Of a DNA stretch of 64,000 nucleotides, positions 2,362 to 24,203 are shown piece by piece. Source of the stretch: a phage. Within the stretch, counting starts at the first letter, position 1, and the number at the start of each line of letters is the position of its first letter. Position numbers and translations under genes: made by a program. Under the pieces are notes generated by a model. That model saw only the letters and a program-made list of their open reading frames with translations. It was not told the origin of the DNA and ran no database searches. Location: sequence record PX092659.1. The stretch is one strand, 5' to 3'.

Positions 2362-3175
2362 ATTTGTTCCCCGGCATATAAGGCCTACCCTCTAGATGAG
2401 CTTCTACACGAGCAATAAAATCAGGGTCACTGAAGGCATCTACAGCCCCTTTACCCCAGTAAGGGATACCGCGTTCTTCCAACTGGTACATCTCACTACG
2501 AGTCATGCCTTGATAGCCAGGTTCCGCTGCTAGGGCATTATCATAGTAGTTAACAACCATTAGCTTGGCAGCAGTAAGGTTAAGAATAGGAAATAATTCC
2601 CAGTAGAAGTTAATTACTTGGTTAGAGCAACCAACCACAATGATCATATCTTGACTGGTAATACCATCAAAAACATTGTACATTTCTGTATATGCTGGAG
2701 CATGCTCACCAAAGAAGATGACATTAGGTTTAACCCATTTATAGTCATCTGGGTCAATAGAGTTATACCCAACATCAATAATTCGTTTATTACTACTATT
2801 GTAGCTATCAGCTACAACAACCTCCTTTAAGTATCCATGAATGTGGAGAATATCATTATGGGGAACACCAGCACGCTCAATAAGGTCATCAACGTTAGTA
2901 GTCAAATTTACTACTTGACCTGGGTATTGTTTATACCACTCACCAATACGAAGATGCGCAAGGTTAGGTTCAACAGTTTTTAGCTCTTCACGACGCTTGT
3001 TGTAAAACATATGGGTTTTATGATAAAAATTACCACGAAAGGCATGAATATTACATACTTCTTCTAGATCATAATCATCCCACAATGCTTTACCACTAGC
3101 AGTATCAGTACGAAAGGCTCGTACACCACTTTCAACGCTCAAACCCGCACCGCTAATAATAATTAATCTACGCAT
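2348..3175 (-). CDS. Sir2-like NAD-dependent protein (no zinc-ribbon cysteines)
   Basis: Motifs GAGLSVESGVRAFR, TTNVDDL, HIHG, KPNVIFFGE match the Sir2 catalytic core; no CxxC...CxxC Zn module seen. Confidence 0.7.
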   Translation of the reverse strand: MRRLIIISGAGLSVESGVRAFRTDTASGKALWDDYDLEEVCNIHAFRGNFYHKTHMFYNKRREELKTVEPNLAHLRIGEWYKQYPGQVVNLTTNVDDLIERAGVPHNDILHIHGYLKEVVVADSYNSSNKRIIDVGYNSIDPDDYKWVKPNVIFFGEHAPAYTEMYNVFDGITSQDMIIVVGCSNQVINFYWELFPILNLTAAKLMVVNYYDNALAAEPGYQGMTRSEMYQLEERGIPYWGKGAVDAFSDPDFIARVEAHLEGRPYMPGNKYVHN

Positions 3176-3389
3176 TTTTCACCTGTTCTCTGAAGTTTTG
3201 CCCAATACTGTCTAATAGCTCAGCTAATTCTTTATTGCCTTTCTCCATTAAGGTATTAGCAATAACTTCTAGCATAGTAGCGCAGGATTCAACACCATCC
3301 TTATAGCCAGTTTCCCAGTGCTGCATTAATGCGTTTTCCAAAGCGGCGTTTAAACCCTTATCTGGTAGTATCGGCTTCAAGAATGCCAT
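3168..3389 (-). CDS. hypothetical protein (73 aa)
   Basis: ORF in minus-strand array. Confidence 0.4.
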   Translation of the reverse strand: MAFLKPILPDKGLNAALENALMQHWETGYKDGVESCATMLEVIANTLMEKGNKELAELLDSIGQNFREQVKNA

Positions 3390-3951: not shown

Positions 3952-5778
3952 TTACTTAAGATTTAAGTGTTTTACTCTACCAAGAACTTCTTTTTGTTTC
4001 CCAGAATTGAAAGGCCTACTGCCAGGAGATCCCAGGTACCCGCAAACCCTACGTGTAACCTCTATTTCTTCAGACCCACAACTCGGACATACAAACCCAC
4101 GTTCAGAGGCAACAGATTCACCCATATACCCACAGTTGAAGCACTCATCAATTGGTATATTAACACCAATATAATGGCTACATTCTAGCCCCTTATCCAC
4201 CACATACTCAAGAGCTTTGTGGAACTTTTTCATTTGAGGTAGTTCCACAAATGATATATTACCACCATTAGCTATTTTGGTAAAATGAGCCTCGTACTCA
4301 AATTTAGTATCTGGAGCTACCTTCTCTCTTACGTCCAAATGGTGACTATTAGTAAGATAGCCTTTGTCTGTTAACCAAGAATACTCTGGGAATCTACGTT
4401 CTAGTAATTTATTAAAACGATTACATAGAGACTCACTAGGAGTAGCATACAAGCTAAACCCAAGATTAGTCTCATTAGCTTTAACTTCGCAACGATTTTT
4501 TAGGTGAGTGAGAACTTCCTCTGTAAATTCAATACAGTCCCTATGGGTCTGTGGTAAACTAAACATTATTTGGCACATCTCATAGACCCCAATATACCCA
4601 AGAGATACAGAGGATCTACCCTCAAAAATAGGCCATACATATTCTTCCCCTTCTAAACGTGCACCAAACCCACCGTGCATATAAAGAATAGGGGCTTGTT
4701 TAGCCTTAACTTTCTTCAGTCTGTTTAAGAAGAAGTCATGCGCTTCAAAAGCCTCATCCACATATTTGTCTAGAATACCCCAGAAATCTTCAAAAACTCC
4801 ATCTGCCTCAGCAGCAACCATAGGTAGATTGATAGACACAACACCTAAATTATTACGTCCTGCAATTTCTCCAGAGGGGATAGCAGATAAAAAACTACGA
4901 CAACCCATAGGGGCTTTAAAATCACCAGTAACAGCTACAACTCTCTCGTAACTTAAATAGTCTGGATACATACGAGTAGCAGAACACTCAAGTGCTAGCT
5001 GTTTTATATCATAGTTAGGATCACCTGGGTTTTTATTTAACCCTTCTTTAACTGAGAATACTAGTTTAGGGAAGATAGGGGTTGACTCAGCAGCACCTAA
5101 ACCTTTAATGCGATTTTGGAGGATGGCTTTCTGAATCATCCTTTCCTCCCACTCCTGCCCTAATCCAAAGCCAAGCGTAACAAAAGGGGTCTGCCCATTA
5201 GAGTTAAATAATGAATTAGTTTCATACTCTAGAGCTTGGAATGCATCATAACACTCTTTTTCAGTAAGCTCAGTAGCATACACAGCAGCTTTTCTTTCAT
5301 CCTTGAGCCAACGTAGCCCACGACCCAGATGTTTATTGTAAGACTTTCTGACATACGGGGCTAGAACCTCGTCGATACGATCAATAGAGGTGCCACCATA
5401 CTGAGCACCAGATACTTGGGCAATAATCTGAGCAGTGATTGCACATGCAGTAGTTATGGATTTAGGAGTTTCAATATTTGCATTACCAATTTTAGTACCA
5501 TTCTTCAGCATGCCACCAAGGTCTACTAAGCAACAGTTAGTGTACCCCTGCGCCCTGTAATCCATATCATGAATGTGTATCTTACCTAGATTATGTGCGT
5601 CTAATAGATGTTTGGGTAATTCCTGCGATACTAAATACTTGTTGATTTCTCCGGCTAATAAGTCTCTTTGAGTATGGAACATCTCACTAGGCTTATTAGC
5701 ATTATTATGTTGTAAGTCCTTGTCAGCAGTTAGAGTGAGCAGGCCTTTGCAATTCTCAATTAATTCATTCTCTGTCAT
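3952..5778 (-). CDS. nrdD: anaerobic ribonucleoside-triphosphate reductase (class III)
   Basis: 608 aa; C-terminal zinc-ribbon cysteines and glycyl-radical motif RRVCGYLG. Confidence 0.85.
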   Translation of the reverse strand: MTENELIENCKGLLTLTADKDLQHNNANKPSEMFHTQRDLLAGEINKYLVSQELPKHLLDAHNLGKIHIHDMDYRAQGYTNCCLVDLGGMLKNGTKIGNANIETPKSITTACAITAQIIAQVSGAQYGGTSIDRIDEVLAPYVRKSYNKHLGRGLRWLKDERKAAVYATELTEKECYDAFQALEYETNSLFNSNGQTPFVTLGFGLGQEWEERMIQKAILQNRIKGLGAAESTPIFPKLVFSVKEGLNKNPGDPNYDIKQLALECSATRMYPDYLSYERVVAVTGDFKAPMGCRSFLSAIPSGEIAGRNNLGVVSINLPMVAAEADGVFEDFWGILDKYVDEAFEAHDFFLNRLKKVKAKQAPILYMHGGFGARLEGEEYVWPIFEGRSSVSLGYIGVYEMCQIMFSLPQTHRDCIEFTEEVLTHLKNRCEVKANETNLGFSLYATPSESLCNRFNKLLERRFPEYSWLTDKGYLTNSHHLDVREKVAPDTKFEYEAHFTKIANGGNISFVELPQMKKFHKALEYVVDKGLECSHYIGVNIPIDECFNCGYMGESVASERGFVCPSCGSEEIEVTRRVCGYLGSPGSRPFNSGKQKEVLGRVKHLNLK

Positions 5779-17713: not shown

Positions 17714-18031
17714 ATGACTTTTCATATTTTGATTGATGATGTGCGTAATCTTCACGGAATGGACATTATCATTCGAACCCCAGAAGCCGCTGTAGAGTTT
17801 CTGAATAAAACTGATACCACAGGCCATTTCGTTTATATGGATAATGACTTGGCTGTAGATGGTATGGAAGGTTATCAAATTCTCCGTTTACTCTTAGAAT
17901 TTGGGCAGAGACCAAAGAAAGTGGTACTAGTAACCTCGAACCCAGTAGCTAAGCAAAATATGCGCAATGATTTGCTTGACTTAGGGTATAAAGAAAATCC
18001 CAATCGTGTTGAATATGATTGGCAGGAGTAA
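17714..18031 (+). CDS. hypothetical protein (105 aa), weak receiver-fold-like pattern
   Basis: ILIDDV...YMDNDL...LVTSN pattern; tentative. Confidence 0.45.
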   Translation: MTFHILIDDVRNLHGMDIIIRTPEAAVEFLNKTDTTGHFVYMDNDLAVDGMEGYQILRLLLEFGQRPKKVVLVTSNPVAKQNMRNDLLDLGYKENPNRVEYDWQE

Positions 18032-18036
18032 AAAGA

Positions 18037-18486
18037 ATGAAGGCAGCTTTGCTTTTAGTAGCTGCCCTTACCTTCAGCTTTAGTAGTCAGGCATCGCACG
18101 ATGCAAAAGAAATAGATTGCATTGCTAAAAATATCTATTTCGAAAGTCGTGGTGAGGGCATAAAGGGAATGACGGCGATTGCACATGTTACTAAAAACCG
18201 TGTAAACTCCGGTAAATTCCCAGATTCCTACTGTAAAGTAGTATATCAGTCTAACCAGTTCTCTTGGGTATCTAAGAAACCAAAAGTTGATAAAACTGAT
18301 GAGGCTTGGCAAACCGCTAAGAATTTAGCTAGAGTGATATACTACGTTGATTTACCACAAGATCCTACATATGGAGCACTATACTTCCATAGTGGTAAAG
18401 ATAAACCTTACTGGACAAAGAAGTTTAAGAAAACAACTAAGATTAAGGGACATACGTTTTATAAACCTGTTGTCACTAAAACTTAA
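18037..18486 (+). CDS. secreted SleB-like cell-wall hydrolase
   Basis: Signal peptide MKAALLLVAALTFSFSSQA; motifs NIYFESRGE, AIAHVTKNRV, YCKVVYQSNQFSW typical of the SleB/Hydrolase_2 family. Confidence 0.6.
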   Translation: MKAALLLVAALTFSFSSQASHDAKEIDCIAKNIYFESRGEGIKGMTAIAHVTKNRVNSGKFPDSYCKVVYQSNQFSWVSKKPKVDKTDEAWQTAKNLARVIYYVDLPQDPTYGALYFHSGKDKPYWTKKFKKTTKIKGHTFYKPVVTKT

Positions 18487-19435: not shown

Positions 19436-19510
19436 GCCGTCCTAGTATAATTGGTATTATCAAGCCGTAACTGGTGGAAGATGTAGGTTCGAATCTTACG
19501 GTCGGTAAGA
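19436..19510 (+). ncRNA. degenerate tRNA-like element
   Basis: Canonical T-arm gtagg-ttcgaat-cttac and 6/7 acceptor pairing, but no acceptable anticodon stem and no CCA. Confidence 0.25.
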
Positions 19511-20009: not shown

Positions 20010-20084
20010 CGGGGTGTAGTCTAAGGGAGAGGCAGGAGTCTTCTAAATTCCTTTATGCAGGTTCGAATCCTGTCACCTCGGCCA
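20010..20084 (+). tRNA. tRNA-Arg (anticodon TCT)
   Basis: Manual cloverleaf: acceptor cggggtg/cacctcg, anticodon loop cttctaa, T-arm gcagg-ttcgaat-cctgt, encoded CCA. Confidence 0.75.
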
Positions 20085-20118: not shown

Positions 20119-21066
20119 ATGTTTAATACTAAAAATATGAAAGAACTGACTTCTGAGCAGAAAGTAATTCGTACTATTAAACGTTGGGGTATTGGTGCTG
20201 TAGTTGGTTTAGCAGGCTTGATTCTAGCCTTTAATTCATATACTATTGTTTCTGATGGTACGGTTAAAACTCAAACATTTCTGGGTAAAGTAGATCCTAA
20301 CCCAGTATTACCAGGTTTCCATCTTGTAAACCCCTTTGCATCTTTCGACACTTTTAGTACAAAAGATATTGCTGTAAAATTAGATAAACTTCAAGTTCCT
20401 AGTCAGGATAAATTTAAATCCACTGTTGACCTGACTGTTATGTTGCAGTTTGATGGTTCTAAGGCACCGATTAACCGTATTAATGCGGGTACTCAGGATC
20501 AAGCGTTAGACAAATATGTAACTGAAAAATTACTGTCTACTATTCGTGAGTTTGGTAAGTCTGTACCTAAAGCACAAGATTTGTTTGATGCTAAAATTCA
20601 GGCTCAATTGCAAACTGCAATTCAACAGGAAGTTGAAGAGTATGCACGCCCATATGGTTATACAGTTAAGCAGGTATTCCTTCAGGATATTACTTTGCCA
20701 CCGGTAATCATGGAACAGGTACAGAATACCAAAGTTCGTGAAGAACAGGTTAATGCTGCTAAAGCTGAATTAGCTCGTGTTGAACAGGAAGCACAGCAAA
20801 AAGTTAAACAAGCAGAAGCAGATCGCGAAGCTCGTAATAACCAAGCTATTGCCAATGAGCGTGACGCAGATGCCAAACTGTACGCAGCTAAGAAAGAAGC
20901 TGAAGCTAACGCCGCGTTGCAACGTACCATTACTCCTGAGATGATTCGCTGGAAGCAACTGGAAGTTGAAATGATTCGTGCTCAGAAATACCAAGGTGGT
21001 GTACCGCAGACTGTGGTTGGCACTGGCTATGATGGCCAAATGATTATGGATATGCGTAATAAATAA
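20119..21066 (+). CDS. SPFH/band-7 (stomatin/HflC-like) membrane protein
   Basis: N-terminal TM helix, SPFH-like core, C-terminal coiled coil rich in A/E/K/Q (AKAELARVEQEAQQKVKQAEADREA). Confidence 0.65.
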   Translation: MFNTKNMKELTSEQKVIRTIKRWGIGAVVGLAGLILAFNSYTIVSDGTVKTQTFLGKVDPNPVLPGFHLVNPFASFDTFSTKDIAVKLDKLQVPSQDKFKSTVDLTVMLQFDGSKAPINRINAGTQDQALDKYVTEKLLSTIREFGKSVPKAQDLFDAKIQAQLQTAIQQEVEEYARPYGYTVKQVFLQDITLPPVIMEQVQNTKVREEQVNAAKAELARVEQEAQQKVKQAEADREARNNQAIANERDADAKLYAAKKEAEANAALQRTITPEMIRWKQLEVEMIRAQKYQGGVPQTVVGTGYDGQMIMDMRNK

Positions 21067-21090
21067 TACCCGCATGTAACATCTGAAATA

Positions 21091-21126
21091 AGCCCTGCGT
21101 TTCCTGGAGAGCGCAGGGCTTTTCTG
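21091..21126 (+). terminator. intrinsic terminator after SPFH gene
   Basis: 9-bp stem agccctgcg/cgcagggct followed by TTTTCTG. Confidence 0.7.
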
Positions 21127-21141
21127 TATTTAAGATAAAAG

Positions 21142-21180
21142 AAAAGCCCCTAAGTCTTTCGACTAGGGGCTTTATTGTTT
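21142..21180. terminator. bidirectional terminator-like hairpin
   Basis: GC-rich stem gcccctaagtc/gactaggggc flanked by A-run upstream and T-run downstream, between convergent genes. Confidence 0.55.
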
Positions 21181-21390
21181 GGTTCTTTAGAACCATATAC
21201 TCTTGTTACAGCAACCACCCATACGGGAGGCCAATCTTGACTGAAAATCTACTCTAGGGGGCAGGATAAGAGTAGGCTTAAAGGCAAACGGATTGAACGC
21301 CGGTATTTGTGTAAACATTGCTGGAGAGCAACAACGTGCTACAGGCATTGGGCAGCACGAAATAGATTTTCTGCAACACATAATTTCTCC

Positions 21391-21807
21391 TTAGGAGTTA
21401 TTACCACCATTTTGAGCTTTTGCAACTTGGCTTTGGCAGAAGCTATTAAACTTACCCATAAGTGATACAAGCTGTTTCCCATCCTCTGTCTTTGCGAAGT
21501 CTTCGAAAAGGGCTAGTACTGCCTGTCCTTCCGCAGAAACCTGCGGTTGTTGGGTTTGTTGCTGAACTTGCTGCTGAGGCACCTGTTGCTGCATTTGTTG
21601 AGGCATTTGCGACTGCCCGCTCATTTGCTGCATCATTTGCATAGGACTCACACTTCCAGGGTTTTGCTGGAGTTGTTGCTGCATCTGTTGCGCTTCTGCT
21701 AAACGCTGTTGCAATTGTTGTAAGTAGGGGTTATCCAGACCCGGAATGGGCTGCTGGGAGCCCATACTTTGATTAAGTCCGTTATTTACAAAACCATATT
21801 TACTCAT
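21391..21807 (-). CDS. Q-rich low-complexity protein (138 aa)
   Basis: Long Gln/Met-rich stretches; convergent with SPFH gene. Confidence 0.5.
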   Translation of the reverse strand: MSKYGFVNNGLNQSMGSQQPIPGLDNPYLQQLQQRLAEAQQMQQQLQQNPGSVSPMQMMQQMSGQSQMPQQMQQQVPQQQVQQQTQQPQVSAEGQAVLALFEDFAKTEDGKQLVSLMGKFNSFCQSQVAKAQNGGNNS

Positions 21808-21828
21808 AATGGGCTCCTCCCCTTAATA

Positions 21829-22821
21829 TTAAGCCGGCAGTTTAGCCTGCAGACCAGCCAGAGTCTGAGTGATAGCACCAAGACTTACAGCGATTTGATT
21901 AATTACCTGACCGTTAGCACCGTTACCCGCAGCGATTGCTTCACGTAGGCGACATGCATCTAACTCATCCTGAATACGAGCAGTAGTTACACCAGCGATA
22001 GCAGTCTGAAGTTCACAGCAACATTCAGCGATCTGACGTTCCAGAGAGTTCTGGTTAGCACACATCTGAGCCTGAACAGCGGCAAACTGGTTATTAGTTT
22101 GTAAAGTCTGCTGGAAAGCGATCTGTGCAGAATCAAACTTATCTTGTGCACGAGCTATCTGATTAGCTGCGAAAGATTGATCAATCTGGCGAGAAAGATC
22201 GAACTGACCCTGAATAACGTTGCGAGTTTCCTGACAGATCTGATTAGACAGATTAGCACCTGTACCATAGATCGTAGTTAGTACAGACTGAGTATCACGG
22301 CTCTGGTTTTGGGATGTCTGGCTAAACCCATTGTTAACTGCGCTTAAAACAGCTCCAGTACCCTGGTTAGCTTCTGTACGAGTAGTGTTAATAGCTGCTA
22401 GAATACTAGCGGTATCTTGGTTCTGAAGTACTGCATCAACTGCGGTACCATCACCAACTACACCACGTCCACCGAATCCACCGAAACCACCGAATCCGCC
22501 TGTTAATAGAGCACCGATTAGGATAGCTCCGAATAGTCCCATACCTTCACCACCGAAAGCACCTGCGTTTGCTGGGTAACCACCCAGTAGGCCAGGGAAG
22601 CCACTAGTAAATACGTTTACTGGTTCTTGCATTTTATGTTTTCCATATTTATGACAATGTTCATCGTCATCTTCTTCATCATCGTGTTCACGATGTTTTT
22701 CTTCGTAGGCTCTGACCTTCTCCCACTTTTTCTTATCTGATTCCTCGTGACGGTGCAGTTCTGCTGCAACGCTAGCGACGGTCTCAGGACTCTTAGCTAC
22801 TTCTTCTGTCATTTTTGACAC
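21829..22821 (-). CDS. membrane protein with His/acidic N-terminus and glycine-zipper TM segment (330 aa)
   Basis: GAILIGALLTGGFGGFGGFGG segment then Q/N/A/T-rich domain with CCC motif; RBS AGGAGG upstream on minus strand. Confidence 0.55.
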   Translation of the reverse strand: MSKMTEEVAKSPETVASVAAELHRHEESDKKKWEKVRAYEEKHREHDDEEDDDEHCHKYGKHKMQEPVNVFTSGFPGLLGGYPANAGAFGGEGMGLFGAILIGALLTGGFGGFGGFGGRGVVGDGTAVDAVLQNQDTASILAAINTTRTEANQGTGAVLSAVNNGFSQTSQNQSRDTQSVLTTIYGTGANLSNQICQETRNVIQGQFDLSRQIDQSFAANQIARAQDKFDSAQIAFQQTLQTNNQFAAVQAQMCANQNSLERQIAECCCELQTAIAGVTTARIQDELDACRLREAIAAGNGANGQVINQIAVSLGAITQTLAGLQAKLPA

Positions 22822-23018
22822 CTCCTAGTATATAGAAAATGTGTGTCTCTTTGATCACTCATCCATAACATATACTTTACACTACCCCAGCGAAAATGTC
22901 AAGGGGTCTTTAAAAATTGCCCCTGAATTTTTAGTGGGGTCACAAATTTTGGTCCTCACCATTTATCTGCTATCCTTAAGTGCCCTATGATTTTCCTCTA
23001 AAAAGTTAAAAAATTTGA

Positions 23019-23047
23019 TTGCTTGAATGCTAAATTCTCTGTATAAT
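23019..23047 (+). promoter_or_regulatory. T5-type promoter
   Basis: TTGCTT-17-TATAAT. Confidence 0.65.
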
Positions 23048-23077
23048 ATATCTATAAATTTGAAAGAGGAACCAAAT

Positions 23078-23596
23078 ATGAATGTTGATGAGCTAACACA
23101 GCACCTCTTATCTAGAGGATTTGATACAGATAAATATCATTGCTGGTTAAGTCCGGAAGGATGGCTAACAGTCCCGTTGTATGACTTCTCTGGGATGTTG
23201 AGGGGCTATCAAACTTATAATCCTTCTGCTCCAAAAGGTCATGGTAAGTGCCCCTTTGAAGCTAAATACTTTACTTATTCTACTACCCAGTGTGTATGGG
23301 GACTAGAAACTCTCAATGGAGATGAAAAAGTAGTATTGATTGCTGAATCTGTATTTAAGGCAGTTGCGTTACATAATGCTGGTTATCCAGCCCTAGCAAT
23401 GTTGGGTTCTTCTCCAGGAAAAGCGTTATTAAAGCAACTGAAATTACTACCTTTTAAATTGGTAGCTGTCGGAGATAATGATCCTGCGGGTGAAAAATTT
23501 GCTAGAAAATTAAACGGCTTTGTTTCTCCCGTAGATGTGGATGAGATGTCTACCGAAAACTTGAAAAATTTTCTTGCTATGAAGCTAAATTTCTAA
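23078..23596 (+). CDS. small Toprim-domain-like protein
   Basis: Start MNVDELTQ after GAGG RBS; VVLIAESVFKA...LVAVGDNDPAGEKF resembles Toprim E...DxD. Confidence 0.5.
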   Translation: MNVDELTQHLLSRGFDTDKYHCWLSPEGWLTVPLYDFSGMLRGYQTYNPSAPKGHGKCPFEAKYFTYSTTQCVWGLETLNGDEKVVLIAESVFKAVALHNAGYPALAMLGSSPGKALLKQLKLLPFKLVAVGDNDPAGEKFARKLNGFVSPVDVDEMSTENLKNFLAMKLNF

Positions 23597-23801: not shown

Positions 23802-24203
23802 ATGGAAAAGGTTGAATTTGAGTACTTTGGAGTTATTTTAATTGTACACTTAAATGGTACAATAGAAACTAAAGATAGAATAATAACACAACGAAATCAA
23901 TATGGCGAGTATACTAGAACTATAAAAGGAAAGGTACTGTCTCCACGTTGCAATGGTAAATCTGGGTATTTTCAGGTGAAGATTTGCAATAAGGGATTAG
24001 GTAAAAATGAGTATGTGCACAGACTCGTATGGATGGCTTTCAACGGTGAAATACCGGAAGGCTATGAAATAGAGCACAAAGATGATGATAAGTCTAATAA
24101 TGCTTTACCTAACCTAGAATTATTCACAAGAAAGCAGAATATGGACAAAGTCTTAAATAAGATGACTAGAGATTCTCTAGGTCGTTTTGAAAAACTTAAC
24201 TAG
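23802..24203 (+). CDS. HNH homing endonuclease
   Basis: VHRLVWMAFNGEIPEGYEIEHKDDDKSNN...NLELFTRKQN (HNH_3-type). Confidence 0.7.
   Translation: MEKVEFEYFGVILIVHLNGTIETKDRIITQRNQYGEYTRTIKGKVLSPRCNGKSGYFQVKICNKGLGKNEYVHRLVWMAFNGEIPEGYEIEHKDDDKSNNALPNLELFTRKQNMDKVLNKMTRDSLGRFEKLN

What the first reader, a model, noticed from the sequence alone, without database searches (positions are those of the whole stretch)
20119..22821. SPFH-family membrane protein convergent with a Q-rich protein and a glycine-zipper membrane protein, insulated by terminators
Inside the otherwise plus-strand tRNA island, an SPFH/stomatin-like gene is followed by two terminators and faces a two-gene minus-strand unit (138-aa Q-rich protein; 330-aa protein with GGFGGFGGFGG transmembrane segment). 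The insulated opposite-strand arrangement looks like an accessory or moron-type module, possibly membrane-associated.
Basis: partly seen in the sequence, partly recalled or inferred. Interest (0 to 1): 0.5.

Follow-up and report, generated by a model that had tools for sequence, protein, structure and literature searches.

The report
Mobile three-gene phage cassette beside SPFH

Summary
The window is a Tequintavirus (98% identical to phage SP15) and the region corresponds to T5 genes T5.080 to T5.077.

- The minus-strand unit has three genes, not two. A 64-aa protein with four Cys-Cys pairs (T5.079, 21187-21381) follows the Q-rich gene.
- The large gene starts at ATG 22812 (327 aa), not GTG 22821.
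- The first "terminator" hairpin carries T5's annotated 32.6% major DNA nick (GA^GCGC, 21110/21111).

The SPFH gene and the cassette are separate units.

- **SPFH:** found in about 440 T5-like records and about 290 T4-like and other phage records.
- **A-B-C cassette:** found in about half of T5-like phages and cleanly deleted in others. The same gene order occurs in two lambdoid phages (opposite strand, between Q and the holin gene), in Pseudomonas phage RSP, and in one further phage.

Published CRISPRi-ART data score T5.077 to T5.080 as "Not Fit".

Protein A combines a glycine-rich hydrophobic segment with a predicted ~140-residue helix. It carries an invariant CCC motif shared with an undescribed family found on phage-like contigs. 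None of A, B or C matches Pfam, PDB, PADLOC or NCBIfam.

The moron-type reading holds for the cassette only. Its function is unknown; my best guess is an envelope-associated role in phage-phage or phage-host conflict.

The parts
20010..20084 (+). tRNA-Arg(TCT), lying 34 nt upstream of the SPFH gene. It is part of the same early + strand transcription unit, which in T5 is rnaX, then tRNA-Arg, then T5.080.
   Evidence: ARAGORN and Rfam; T5 annotation.
20119..21066 (+). SPFH/Band-7 protein of 315 aa, the T5.080 homologue. It has a basic N-terminus (net +4), one hydrophobic helix at about residues 24-43, an SPFH domain at 52-225 and an Ala/Glu/Lys/Gln-rich helical tail. It has no Cys, so the inherited 'lipoprotein' name is wrong.
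   Evidence: Pfam PF01145 at 2e-17. PHROG 200. Closest solved chains are QmcA (1.8e-6) and prohibitins. Hydropathy and Cys count. 63 synonymous against 2 non-synonymous codon changes versus T5.
21090..21121 (+). Hairpin 1. A 10-bp perfect G+C-rich stem followed by TTTTCTGTATTT, terminator-like for the SPFH transcript. Its loop/stem edge holds GA^GCGC, T5's annotated 32.6% major nick, between 21110 and 21111 on the + strand.
   Evidence: fold, z=-4.8; mapping of the T5 nick feature.
21137..21179 (.). Hairpin 2, a bidirectional intrinsic terminator with T-runs on both strands. It ends the A-B-C operon 11 nt after the stop codon of C.
   Evidence: T5 annotation 'efficient bidirectional rho-independent terminator' mapped by alignment. 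Fold on both strands. The stem is kept through inversion of its interior and through a different stem sequence in relatives. An analogous bidirectional hairpin lies 8 nt after gene C in lambdoid locus L006.
21187..21381 (-). Gene C (T5.079 homologue). 64 aa, 12.5% Cys as four CC pairs, 12.5% Pro, net basic, with no hydrophobic segment.
21205..21345 (.). An ultra-conserved nucleotide block inside gene C. It is about 98% identical even to phage EH5, where the neighbouring sequence is 62-90% identical. Its substitutions are not biased to third codon positions. This is an unexplained extra constraint.
   Evidence: the mRNA-sense strand folds with z=-2.4.
21391..21807 (-). Gene B (T5.078 homologue). 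138 aa, with a conserved N-terminal helix motif PYLQQLQQRL, a Q/P-rich linker of variable length, and a conserved C-terminal motif EGQAVLALFE-FAKTEDGKQLVS-GKFNxFCQS containing an invariant Cys.
21829..22812 (-). Gene A (T5.077 homologue), 327 aa. It has an N-terminal helix, a variable acidic/His-rich stretch, the conserved motif MQEPVNVFTNG, and a glycine-rich hydrophobic segment (GLFGAILIGALLTGGFGGFGGFGG). The C-terminal ~200 residues are rich in Ala, Gln, Thr and Asn. They are predicted as one ~140-residue helix plus a second helix, and carry invariant C251 and C264-C266.
22874..22902 (-). Sigma-70-type promoter TTGACA-17-TAAAGT for the A-B-C operon, equivalent to T5 promoter P12. It is divergent from the promoter of the Toprim/anti-retron gene at 23027-23596.

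Best explanation
The region holds two independent transcription units that meet tail-to-tail at a pair of hairpins.

**Unit 1 (shown).** The SPFH gene (T5.080 homologue) ends the early rnaX / tRNA-Arg transcription unit. It is a strongly conserved accessory gene shared with T4-like phages. Inferred: it forms an HflK/C-, QmcA- or prohibitin-like oligomeric scaffold on the inner membrane. The positive-inside rule places its SPFH domain in the periplasm.

**Unit 2 (shown).** This is a self-contained three-gene cassette in the order A, B, C (T5.077, T5.078, T5.079). It has its own sigma-70 promoter (P12), coupled translation and a bidirectional terminator. It is dispensable and is gained and lost as a block. 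The same cassette is inserted in unrelated phages, typically against the local direction of transcription, so it behaves as a moron-type cargo module.

**How the cassette probably works (inferred, about 0.3 confidence).**
- A is held at the inner membrane by its glycine-zipper-like segment.
- A assembles through its ~21-nm helix into an oligomer.
- The invariant CCC ring of A, the single conserved Cys of B and the CC pairs of C are held together by disulfides or by a bound metal.
- The complex acts at the cell envelope in conflicts with competing phages or with host immunity (exclusion or counter-defence), not in replication, assembly or lysis.

Confidence is about 0.85 for the anatomy and the accessory, mobile status. 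It is about 0.3 for the envelope and conflict mechanism.
For: **Identity and anatomy**
- The region is 98% identical to SP15 and co-linear with T5.076 to T5.081.

**Independence of the two units**
- SPFH at >=80% identity is in about 439 T5-like records, and at 35-78% identity in about 290 T4-like, Aeromonas and Vibrio phage records.
- A is in 223 records and C in 222.
- Phage fuchur lacks window 21216-22967 exactly. It keeps SPFH, both hairpins and a 29-nt remnant of the 3' end of C.
- SESL lacks A and B.
- EH5, STG2 and EscoHU1 carry A-B-C next to a NadR-PnuC cassette.

**Mobility**
- A-B-C in the same order occurs in two lambdoid phages, between the Q antiterminator and holin/lysozyme/Rz, on the opposite strand (L006/L007 and L042).
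- It also occurs in Pseudomonas phage RSP and its relative L009, in L043 and in a divergent T5-like contig that has no SPFH gene beside it (L005).

**Dispensability**
- T5.077, T5.078, T5.079 and T5.080 are all 'Not Fit' in the CRISPRi-ART screen (PMC11879866, supplementary file 16).

**Selection**
- A, B and SPFH show third-position substitution bias.
- Invariant Cys residues are found in A, B and C across about 40% identity.

**Structure of A**
- With a 58-sequence alignment, the C-terminal domain is predicted at pLDDT 89.5 as helices 13-155 and 158-204 of the domain.
- Hydrophobic periodicity is 3.65 residues over residues 132-200 (peak 68 against a shuffle 95th percentile of 55) and borderline over 132-275.
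- The hydrophobic segment scores +1.6 kcal/mol on the Hessa scale, comparable to the SPFH anchor at +2.25.

**Neighbourhood**
- The adjacent Toprim gene (SP15 ORF75, T5.076) lets the phage evade retrons Eco2 and Eco7, and the island's tRNA-Tyr counters retron Eco7 (PMC11555353; bioRxiv 10.1101/2023.03.15.532788).
Against: - There is no functional evidence of any kind for A, B or C. They have no significant hit in Pfam, NCBIfam, PADLOC or PDB, and their PHROG families carry no function.
- The topology of A is unresolved. The hydrophobic segment is weak in distant homologues (+2.6 to about +9 kcal/mol; and my own sum for P0026).
- Most members of the wider CCC family have no hydrophobic segment at all. 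The CCC domain may therefore be cytoplasmic, which would argue against a disulfide-stapled periplasmic rod.
- B and C have no export signals.
- The long single helix is a monomer prediction with pTM 0.41.
- The cassette was not found in 185,579 representative bacterial genomes or in 5,426 E. coli genomes. It is therefore not a common prophage cargo, and expression from a lysogen is not shown.
- No promoter was found by the simple scan upstream of A in L006.
Confidence: 0.55

Rival explanations
1. The cassette is a counter-defence (anti-immunity) module. A-B-C would neutralise a host defence system, like its neighbours in the tRNA-rich 'anti-defence island'.
For: - It lies directly beside the Toprim gene that defeats retrons, and within the tRNA island whose tRNA-Tyr counters retron Eco7.
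- The adjacent slot carries a NadR-PnuC NAD-salvage cassette in relatives. From general knowledge, NAD+ reconstitution counters NAD-depleting immunity.
- It is expressed early from a strong sigma-70 promoter.
- Its patchy distribution is typical of anti-defence genes.
Against: - Known anti-defence proteins are usually single small soluble proteins. Here three co-inherited genes include a 327-aa membrane-type protein.
- In lambdoid phages the cassette sits on the opposite strand in the classical cargo slot. That position is more typical of genes expressed from a prophage.
- The published fragment screen reported rescue from retrons only for fragments F6, F7 and F8, not F9. I could not verify what F9 contains.
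Confidence: 0.2
2. One reading: SPFH and the minus-strand genes form one functional, membrane-associated module.
For: - They are adjacent and convergent in about 220 T5-like genomes.
- SPFH proteins scaffold membrane complexes (general knowledge; closest solved structures are QmcA and prohibitin).
- A has a membrane-type segment.
Against: - SPFH persists where the cassette is deleted.
- The cassette occurs without an adjacent SPFH gene in L005, L006/L007, L009/RSP, L042 and L043.
- SPFH occurs in about 290 T4-like and other phage records that lack A.
- The two are separately transcribed and separated by two terminators.
Confidence: 0.07
3. The cassette is an accessory lysis or envelope device, such as a spanin-like bridge or a lysis-timing regulator. 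A would be an inner-membrane protein with a periplasm-spanning, disulfide-linked coiled coil and C a small Pro/Cys-rich partner.
For: - The architecture of A resembles an i-spanin: an N-proximal anchor, a long helix of about 21 nm (143 residues x 0.15 nm) and conserved Cys.
- C is small and rich in Pro and Cys, like an o-spanin.
- In both lambdoid phages the cassette abuts holin/lysozyme/Rz.
- In L043 it follows a transglycosylase-like protein.
- A SleB-type cell-wall hydrolase gene lies 2-3 kb away in T5-like phages.
Against: - C has no signal peptide or lipobox.
- T5 has annotated Rz-like spanins elsewhere, T5.044 and T5.045.
- The lambdoid carriers have their own PF03245 Rz genes.
- The cassette is on the opposite strand to the lysis genes.
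- Half of T5-like phages lyse without it.
- Knock-down has no fitness effect.
Confidence: 0.1
4. The cassette is a metal- or thiol-handling complex (for sequestration, delivery or redox). It would be built from the CCC motif of A, the Cys of B, the CC pairs of C and the His/Asp/Glu-rich N-terminus of A.
For: - Cys residues are invariant in all three proteins across about 40% identity.
- The CCC motif is invariant in 58 aligned family members, and most weak-hit family members lack any hydrophobic segment and so are probably cytoplasmic.
- His-rich acidic tracts, up to HHYHHHHHEH, occur in the N-terminus of A in many T5-like phages.
- From general knowledge, vicinal Cys pairs bind soft metals in MerT, MerA, ArsD and metallothioneins.
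Against: - The His-rich tract is absent from distant homologues.
- No match to any metal-binding family was found.
- It is unclear why a lytic phage would need this.
Confidence: 0.1
5. The stretch called gene C is mainly a nucleotide-level element (a structured 3' end of the operon mRNA, an sRNA or a DNA site) and not, or not only, a protein-coding gene.
For: - The block at 21205-21345 is about 98% conserved where its neighbours are 62-90% conserved, and its substitutions show no third-position bias.
- It is retained in SESL although A and B are gone and the reading frame from the start of A is out of phase.
- The mRNA-sense strand folds with z=-2.4.
- Gene callers almost never call it.
Against: - The ORF, its length and its Shine-Dalgarno sequence are kept in all T5-like loci I translated. 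This includes a multi-substitution C-terminal variant (NKSIWF or TPRVWF) that preserves the frame and the stop.
- Homologues in L006, L009/RSP and L042 keep the Cys-pair motifs with different codons and have their own Shine-Dalgarno sequences.
- Rfam finds nothing here.
- There is too little variation to test covariation.

The two readings are not exclusive.
Confidence: 0.15

Closest known systems
SPFH (stomatin/prohibitin/flotillin/HflK-C) proteins: E. coli QmcA and HflK/HflC, and the prohibitins
   Same: The SPFH gene product matches Pfam Band_7 above threshold. It aligns to QmcA over residues 42-266, covering the SPFH domain and the following helical region. It has a single N-terminal hydrophobic anchor.
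   Different: - Similarity to solved members is only distant (E=1.8e-6 to QmcA).
- It is phage-borne and shared between T5-like and T4-like phages at up to 78% identity.
- There is no partner subunit, NfeD gene or FtsH link at the locus.
- Topology is inferred only.
- The database name 'lipoprotein' is not supported, because the protein has no Cys.
Morons (autonomous cargo units) of lambdoid phages, in the sense of Hendrix and colleagues. From memory, examples are lambda bor and lom, HK97 gp15 and stx in the Q-S interval.
   Same: - It has its own promoter and terminator.
- It is inserted between functional modules and often against local transcription.
- It is present or absent among close relatives and unnecessary for lytic growth.
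- In two lambdoid phages it sits in the same Q-to-holin interval.
   Different: - It has three co-inherited genes rather than one.
- It is carried mostly by virulent T5-like phages and expressed as an early operon.
- It was not found in representative bacterial genomes as prophage cargo.
- Its function is unknown.
Rz/Rz1 two-component spanins
   Same: A has an N-proximal membrane segment, a long predicted helix of periplasm-spanning length and conserved Cys. C is a small Pro- and Cys-rich protein.
   Different: - C has no lipoprotein signal.
- A has an 85-residue charged N-terminal domain.
- There is a third protein, B.
- The cassette is outside the lysis cassette and on the opposite strand.
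- Carrier phages have their own spanins.
- There is no sequence similarity.
Phage superinfection-exclusion membrane proteins (from memory: T4 Imm and Sp, P22 SieA, HK97 gp15, T5 Llp)
   Same: These are also early or prophage-expressed, non-essential, patchily distributed phage genes that act at the envelope.
   Different: There is no sequence or domain similarity to any of them. Those are single proteins. No exclusion phenotype has been tested for A-B-C.
The undescribed 'CCC-helix' family (PHROGs 8119, 9288 and 16490, all of unknown function)
   Same: The C-terminal domain of A shares the motif ..Q[IL]AECCCE[LI]KE.. and the surrounding helix. About 70 of the 94 weak hits in a profile search of 1.84 billion representative proteins carry it. 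About a fifth of those also have an N-terminal glycine-rich hydrophobic segment like A.
   Different: Most members are shorter (150-270 aa) and soluble-looking. In the two loci examined (L010, L011) they are not followed by B- or C-like genes. None occurs in cultured phages outside the T5-like phages and RSP.

Membership tests
SPFH / Band 7 (PF01145) | Sequence match to the SPFH domain above the curated threshold | tested here: met
   64.2 bits against a cut-off of 23.6, E=2e-17, residues 52-225.
SPFH / Band 7 (PF01145) | Membrane anchor N-terminal to the SPFH domain, with a helical (coiled-coil) region after it | tested here: met
   The best 19-residue window is IGAVVGLAGLILAFNSYTI (KD 1.79, Hessa +2.25). 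The alignment to QmcA extends through residue 266.
SPFH / Band 7 (PF01145) | Assembly into a large ring or cage oligomer on a membrane | not testable with these tools
   Needs biochemistry or cryo-EM. Inferred only, from QmcA and prohibitin structures.
Bacterial lipoprotein (the name attached to PHROG 200 and T5.080) | A lipobox with an invariant Cys after a signal peptide | tested here: not met
   The 315-aa protein contains no Cys at all.
Moron / autonomous accessory cassette | Own promoter and own terminator flanking the unit | tested here: met
   TTGACA-17-TAAAGT corresponds to T5 P12. A bidirectional terminator lies 11 nt after C. There is a terminator after C in L006 too, but no consensus promoter was found there.
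Moron / autonomous accessory cassette | Present in some and absent from other closely related genomes, with precise boundaries | tested here: met
   A is in 223 of about 440 T5-like records. Fuchur has a deletion of 21216-22967. SESL has lost A and B.
Moron / autonomous accessory cassette | The same unit occurs in unrelated phage backbones | tested here: met
   L006/L007 and L042 (lambdoid), L009 and RSP, L043, and L005.
Moron / autonomous accessory cassette | Not required for lytic growth | tested here: met
   From the literature, not from my own computation: T5.077, T5.078 and T5.079 are 'Not Fit' in CRISPRi-ART (PMC11879866 supplement). Natural deletion variants are viable isolates.
Moron / autonomous accessory cassette | Expressed from the prophage / confers a phenotype on the host | not testable with these tools
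   No lysogen data exist. The cassette is absent from representative bacterial genomes and from E. coli genomes.
Two-component spanin (Rz/Rz1) | An o-spanin with a lipoprotein signal and lipobox Cys | tested here: not met
   C starts MCC... with no hydrophobic h-region.
Two-component spanin (Rz/Rz1) | Located in, and co-transcribed with, the lysis cassette | tested here: not met
   It lies on the opposite strand to holin/lysozyme/Rz in L006 and L042. T5's annotated spanins are T5.044 and T5.045.
Known anti-phage defence systems (PADLOC-DB 2.0) | Match of any component to a defence-system profile | tested here: not met
   Zero families at E<=1 for SPFH, A, B and C.
Glycine-zipper membrane protein families (Pfam Gly-zipper_Omp, Gly-zipper_YMGG, Rick_17kDa) | Profile match to a glycine-zipper family | tested here: not met
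   The only Pfam result for A is RIFIN at E=0.77. The GxxxG-type pattern is visible by eye in GAILIGALLTGGFGGFGG, but that is a resemblance, not membership.
Transmembrane protein (protein A) | A hydrophobic segment sufficient for a membrane-spanning helix, conserved in the family | tested here: inconclusive
   The score is +1.6 kcal/mol in the window protein. It is +2.6 to +5.2 in P0020-P0025 and P0033-P0035. In P0026 the homologous segment sums to about +9, by my own calculation on the Hessa scale.

The most novel reading that the evidence does not exclude
A-B-C is a new kind of three-protein phage system. It would be built around an undescribed 'CCC-helix' domain superfamily: a membrane-tethered, roughly 21-nm helical oligomer whose cysteine ring, together with two small Cys-bearing partners, forms a disulfide- or metal-dependent device. 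That device would exclude rival phages or disarm a host defence. The cassette moves horizontally between virulent T5-like, lambdoid and Pseudomonas siphophages. In addition, the synonymous-site-frozen block inside gene C may encode a second, RNA- or DNA-level function.
Probability: 0.25. Interest if true: 0.7.

Novelty: new member of a known kind. Interest (0 to 1): 0.45.

Why it matters
- **T5 accessory genes.** T5 is a model phage, yet most genes of its tRNA-rich island have no function. Parts of that island were recently shown to defeat retrons and tRNA-targeting immunity.
- **A tractable candidate.** T5.077 to T5.079 form one co-inherited, horizontally mobile and dispensable unit. Their invariant cysteine motifs make it a concrete candidate for a new conflict system. 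The unit occurs in cultured phages (T5, SP15, BASEL T5-like phages and Pseudomonas phage RSP), and natural deletion variants are already available as controls.
- **Annotation fixes.** Gene T5.079 is almost universally missed. The name 'lipoprotein' for the SPFH protein is wrong. The name 'cAMP-dependent protein kinase catalytic subunit' for protein B has no support from the Pfam, NCBIfam or PHROG searches.
- **A missing family.** About 70 clusters of proteins from phage-like contigs share a CCC-helix motif that is absent from Pfam.

Tried and rejected
- **Domain and family searches.** Searches of A, B and C against Pfam, NCBIfam, PADLOC, PHROGs and PDB sequences found nothing informative.
- **Structure prediction.** AlphaFold2 on full-length A with 16 sequences gave a poor model (pLDDT 47). 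The C-terminal domain with 58 sequences gave a confident but featureless long helix.
- **Fold searches.** Foldseek against PDB and BFVD returned no matches, as expected for a single helix.
- **Searches for more copies.** A scan of representative bacterial genomes and a search of E. coli complete genomes found no copy. IMG/VR and JGI metagenome scans returned only T5-like contigs.
- **Wider family in cultured phages.** tblastn of two wider-family members against cultured phages found nothing.
- **RNA families.** Rfam found nothing in the intergenic region or in gene C.
- **Is a hairpin a general feature of T5 nick sites?** No. The 18.5% and 64.8% nicks lie inside the dnk and D13 coding sequences. 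GCGC occurs 95 times in the window against 94.7 expected.
- **Is the cassette the phage's spanin?** Rejected.
- **Literature.** I found no paper on T5.077 to T5.080 function or on phage SPFH function. The 1966 paper that mentions T5st is held only as an abstract-length text. My recollection that T5st(0) deletions remove the 32.6% nick is therefore from memory and is not used as evidence.
- **The 8-kb deletions.** I could not establish whether the published T5n and SP15m deletions, or fragment F9, include the cassette.

Full report
**What the window is.** The 3.2 kb around the finding is 98.3% identical to Escherichia phage SP15 and 97-98% identical to many other Tequintavirus genomes. It is co-linear, in reverse orientation, with T5 genes T5.081 to T5.076. 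The window carries 24 tRNA genes, all on the + strand. The finding therefore lies in the well-known tRNA-rich early region of a T5-like phage.

- The SPFH ORF (20119-21066, +) matches Pfam Band_7 at E=2e-17.
- A 138-aa ORF with 27.5% Gln lies at 21391-21807 (-), and a large ORF containing GGFGGFGGFGG lies upstream of it.
- Two hairpins lie between the convergent units. Both fold far better than shuffled sequence, with z from -4.3 to -5.4 and 0 of 200 shuffles folding as well.

Three corrections are needed.

1. There is a third minus-strand gene at 21187-21381. It encodes 64 aa: MCCRKSISCCPMPVARCCSPAMFTQIPAFNPFAFKPTLILPPRVDFQSRLASRMGGCCNKSIWF. Its AAGGAG ribosome-binding site overlaps the stop codon of the 138-aa gene. 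T5's record annotates it as T5.079. Almost no other record does. It forms a single cluster among 5.8 billion database proteins.
2. The large gene starts at ATG 22812 (327 aa). The GTG at 22821 lies inside the AGGAGG Shine-Dalgarno sequence, and all relatives begin MTEE or MTDE.
3. The two hairpins are not equivalent. By alignment to T5, hairpin 2 (21137-21179) is the feature T5 annotates as an 'efficient bidirectional rho-independent transcription terminator'. Hairpin 1 (21090-21121) contains T5's annotated 'major DNA single-chain interruption', the 32.6% nick with consensus Pu^GCGC. The nick falls between 21110 and 21111, at the 3' edge of the loop.

The -35/-10 pair TTGACA-17-TAAAGT at 22902-22874 falls inside T5's annotated promoter P12.

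**Is gene C real?** The ORF, its length and its ribosome-binding site are kept in window, T5, EH5, SP15, EscoHU1, STG2, VAH1 and JLBYU40. That includes a C-terminal variant (NKSIWF or TPRVWF) produced by several clustered substitutions that keep the frame and the stop. In distant cassettes the homologous small ORF keeps the motifs M-C-(x)-C-C, CC-P-x-x-V-P-x-CC and G-x-CC. These use different synonymous codons (TGC/TGT, CCT/CCC/CCG, GTC/GTT) and have their own Shine-Dalgarno sequences. That is selection on the protein.

There is also something odd at the nucleotide level. The block at about 21205-21345 is about 98% identical even to EH5, where the flanking genes and terminators are 62-90% identical. 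The few substitutions in C are not concentrated at third codon positions, whereas those in SPFH, A and B clearly are. The mRNA-sense strand folds moderately better than shuffles (z=-2.4), and Rfam finds nothing. I could not explain this extra constraint.

**Two units, not one module.** tblastn against 50,697 phage records gives these counts.

| Gene | Records with a match |
|---|---|
| SPFH (all) | 726 |
| SPFH at >=80% identity (T5-like) | about 439 |
| SPFH at 35-78% identity (T4-like Klebsiella, Enterobacter, Cronobacter, Aeromonas and Vibrio phages) | about 290 |
| Protein A | 223 |
| Protein C | 222 |

The natural variants show that the two units separate.

- **Fuchur.** Homology to the window runs from the SPFH gene through both hairpins to 21215, then resumes at 22968. 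This is a clean 1,752-bp deletion that removes promoter P12, A, B and most of C, leaving a 29-nt scar.
- **SESL.** It has lost A and B only.
- **EH5, STG2 and EscoHU1.** They keep A-B-C but carry a NadR-PnuC cassette on the far side.
- **EscoHU1.** It also has an HNH endonuclease gene inserted between C and SPFH.

Conversely, the cassette occurs without an adjacent SPFH gene in every non-Tequintavirus context I found, as described next. SPFH and A-B-C are therefore inherited independently. Their adjacency in T5 is a matter of location, not evidence of joint function.

**The cassette is mobile.** Homologues of A at 36-54% identity led to five further contexts. In each, A is followed by a B homologue carrying the same C-terminal motif..LFxEFAxTxDGKxLVxxxGKFxxFCQS. 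In four of the five a clear C homologue follows. In L005 the small ORF keeps only two CC pairs.

- **L005:** a divergent T5-like contig of 109.5 kb. The cassette is on the opposite strand to all its neighbours.
- **L006/L007 and L042:** two different lambdoid phages. The cassette lies between the Q antiterminator and holin/lysozyme/Rz, on the opposite strand. In L006 it ends in a bidirectional hairpin 8 nt after C.
- **L009 and Pseudomonas phage RSP:** L009 is a 62-kb contig, and RSP is its cultured relative (MK443266). RSP has the complete A-B-C.
- **L043:** a further phage contig.

Scans of IMG/VR and JGI metagenomes found only T5-like copies. Representative bacterial genomes and 5,426 E. 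coli genomes have none. The cassette is therefore rare outside T5-like phages.

**Dispensability.** In the CRISPRi-ART genome-wide knock-down of T5, T5.077, T5.078, T5.079 and T5.080 are all classified 'Not Fit'. T5.076 is 'Semi-Fit' and annotated as anti-retron (PMC11879866, supplementary files 8 and 16). The Toprim gene next door (window 23027-23596, SP15 ORF75) allows evasion of retrons Eco2 and Eco7. The surrounding ~8-kb tRNA-rich region is spontaneously deletable (PMC11555353 and its preprint). I could not determine whether those deletions include the cassette.

**The proteins: SPFH.**
- It has a net +4 N-terminal tail, one hydrophobic helix, the Band_7 domain and a long Ala/Glu/Lys/Gln-rich helical region.
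- Its closest solved relatives are E. coli QmcA (E=1.8e-6) and the prohibitins.
- It has no cysteine, so the name 'lipoprotein' that propagates from PHROG 200 and T5.080 is wrong.
- Purifying selection is strong, with 63 synonymous against 2 non-synonymous codon differences from T5.

**The proteins: A.**
- The conserved motif MQEPVNVFTNG precedes the glycine-rich hydrophobic segment.
- The C-terminal ~200 residues are rich in Ala, Gln, Thr and Asn and low in charge. They carry invariant C251 and C264-C266 and an invariant C-terminal motif, NGQVINQIAVSLGAITQTLAxLQ.
- A profile search of 1.84 billion representative proteins found only 5 clusters below 1e-30. It also found about 90 weak hits, of which about 70 carry the motif ..Q[IL]AECCCE[LI]KE.. 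About a fifth of those also have an N-terminal G-rich hydrophobic segment.
- The two weak-hit loci I inspected (L010, L011) look phage-like. They lack B- and C-like genes.
- With a 58-sequence alignment of this wider family, AlphaFold2 predicts the C-terminal domain confidently (pLDDT 89.5). It forms one ~143-residue helix, a two-residue break shortly after the CCC motif, and a 47-residue helix. A helix of 143 residues is about 21 nm long.
- Hydrophobicity has a 3.65-residue (11/3) periodicity. It is significant for residues 132-200 and borderline for 132-275. A visible 22-residue repeat fits an oligomeric coiled coil or a surface-lying amphipathic helix.
- As a transmembrane helix, the hydrophobic segment scores about the same as the SPFH anchor in this phage. 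It scores much worse in distant homologues, so the topology is open.

**The proteins: B and C.** Neither has a hydrophobic segment or a signal peptide.

**Most likely mechanism, and its limits.**
- *Shown:* an autonomous, translationally coupled, horizontally mobile and dispensable three-gene operon. All three products carry invariant cysteines. It sits in a genomic island where other cargo has proven anti-immunity roles.
- *Inferred:* A is membrane-tethered and oligomerises through its long helix. The CCC ring, the Cys of B and the CC pairs of C are joined by disulfides (if periplasmic) or by a metal (if cytoplasmic). The complex serves phage-phage or phage-host conflict at the envelope.

I put about 0.3 on this functional reading. 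No computation available here can decide between them. The experiments that would are listed under next steps.

**Comparison with what is known.**
- The SPFH gene is an ordinary, if unstudied, phage member of the SPFH superfamily.
- The cassette meets the structural and distributional criteria of a moron, but its proteins belong to no described family.
- It resembles a spanin pair superficially and fails the defining tests. C has no lipobox, the cassette is not in the lysis cassette, and its carriers have their own Rz.
- It matches no known defence or exclusion protein.

**Verdict.** The ORFs, promoter, terminator and nick were annotated in T5 in 2005, so the locus itself is not new. What is new here is the following.

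- T5.077 to T5.079 form one mobile cassette shared with lambdoid and Pseudomonas phages.
- The cassette defines conserved Cys motifs and links to a wider unnamed CCC-helix family.
- Gene C carries an unexplained nucleotide-level constraint.

Interest is moderate. This is a good experimental lead in a model phage, not a surprise.

Noticed in passing
window 21205-21345 (inside gene C): A block of about 140 nt is nearly invariant (about 98%) across T5-like phages whose flanking genes differ by 10-38%. It shows no third-codon-position bias. This suggests an RNA- or DNA-level constraint on top of coding. SESL retains it although A and B are deleted there.
   Followed up: partly
window 21090-21121 (nick between 21110 and 21111): T5's annotated 32.6% major nick site (GA^GCGC) lies at the loop edge of a strong terminator-like hairpin. 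The 18.5% and 64.8% nicks lie inside the dnk and D13 coding sequences, so the hairpin is not a general feature of nick sites. GCGC occurs 95 times in the window against 94.7 expected, so the tetranucleotide alone cannot specify nick sites.
   Followed up: partly
window 21122-21179, compared with L013 (SP15), L001 (VAH1), L014 (EscoHU1), and L012, L015 and L016: The interior of terminator hairpin 2 is inverted between the window/T5 and VAH1/EscoHU1. The 26-nt spacer between the two hairpins is inverted in SP15 relative to the window. EH5, STG2 and SESL have a different stem sequence with the fold kept. This suggests small inversions between the inverted repeats, with structure conserved.
   Followed up: partly
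L004 (fuchur) 5098-5211 against window 22968-23081; L012, L014, L016: A NadR-like nicotinamide-nucleotide adenylyltransferase plus PnuC-like transporter cassette occupies the neighbouring slot in about 205 T5-like records. In fuchur it is preceded by the same promoter and 5' leader that precedes the Toprim gene in the window. In EH5 the Toprim gene is missing. The slot is a cargo-exchange hotspot.
   Followed up: partly
L014 (EscoHU1) 2743-3273: An HNH endonuclease gene is inserted between the gene C terminator and the SPFH gene, at the position of the nick/terminator spacer.
   Followed up: no
window 19436-19507 (+): There is an Rfam tRNA match just above the gathering score (30.7 bits, E=0.0015) that ARAGORN does not call. 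It lies inside the stretch that T5 annotates as rnaX, a 719-nt stable RNA of unknown function upstream of tRNA-Arg.
   Followed up: no
window 23027-23596 (+): This Toprim-domain gene is named 'DNA primase' in many records. It is the homologue of SP15 ORF75 / T5.076, reported to let the phage evade retrons Eco2 and Eco7 (PMC11555353). The 'primase' name is probably misleading.
   Followed up: partly
window 21391-21807 (-): Several GenBank records name protein B 'cAMP-dependent protein kinase catalytic subunit'. No Pfam, NCBIfam or PHROG result supports any kinase similarity.
   Followed up: yes
proteins P0036-P0126 (profile-search hits); loci L010, L011: About 70 clusters of 90-690-aa proteins share the motif ..Q[IL]AECCCE[LI]KE.. 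in a long helical region. The two loci inspected look phage-like. Some members have several copies of the motif or N-terminal glycine-rich hydrophobic segments. There is no Pfam family and no functional PHROG annotation.
   Followed up: partly
window 23802-24203 (+): A 133-aa ORF with an HNH-type motif (..HRLVWMAFNGEIPEGYEIEHKDDDKSNN..) lies among the tRNA genes. It is probably one of the homing endonucleases typical of T5 tRNA islands.
   Followed up: no
window 18019-18486 (+): A SleB-type cell-wall hydrolase (Hydrolase_2 in relatives) has an apparent signal peptide. RefSeq names it 'endolysin', but T5's known lysis genes are elsewhere. A homologue also lies about 2 kb from the cassette in the divergent T5-like locus L005.
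   Followed up: no
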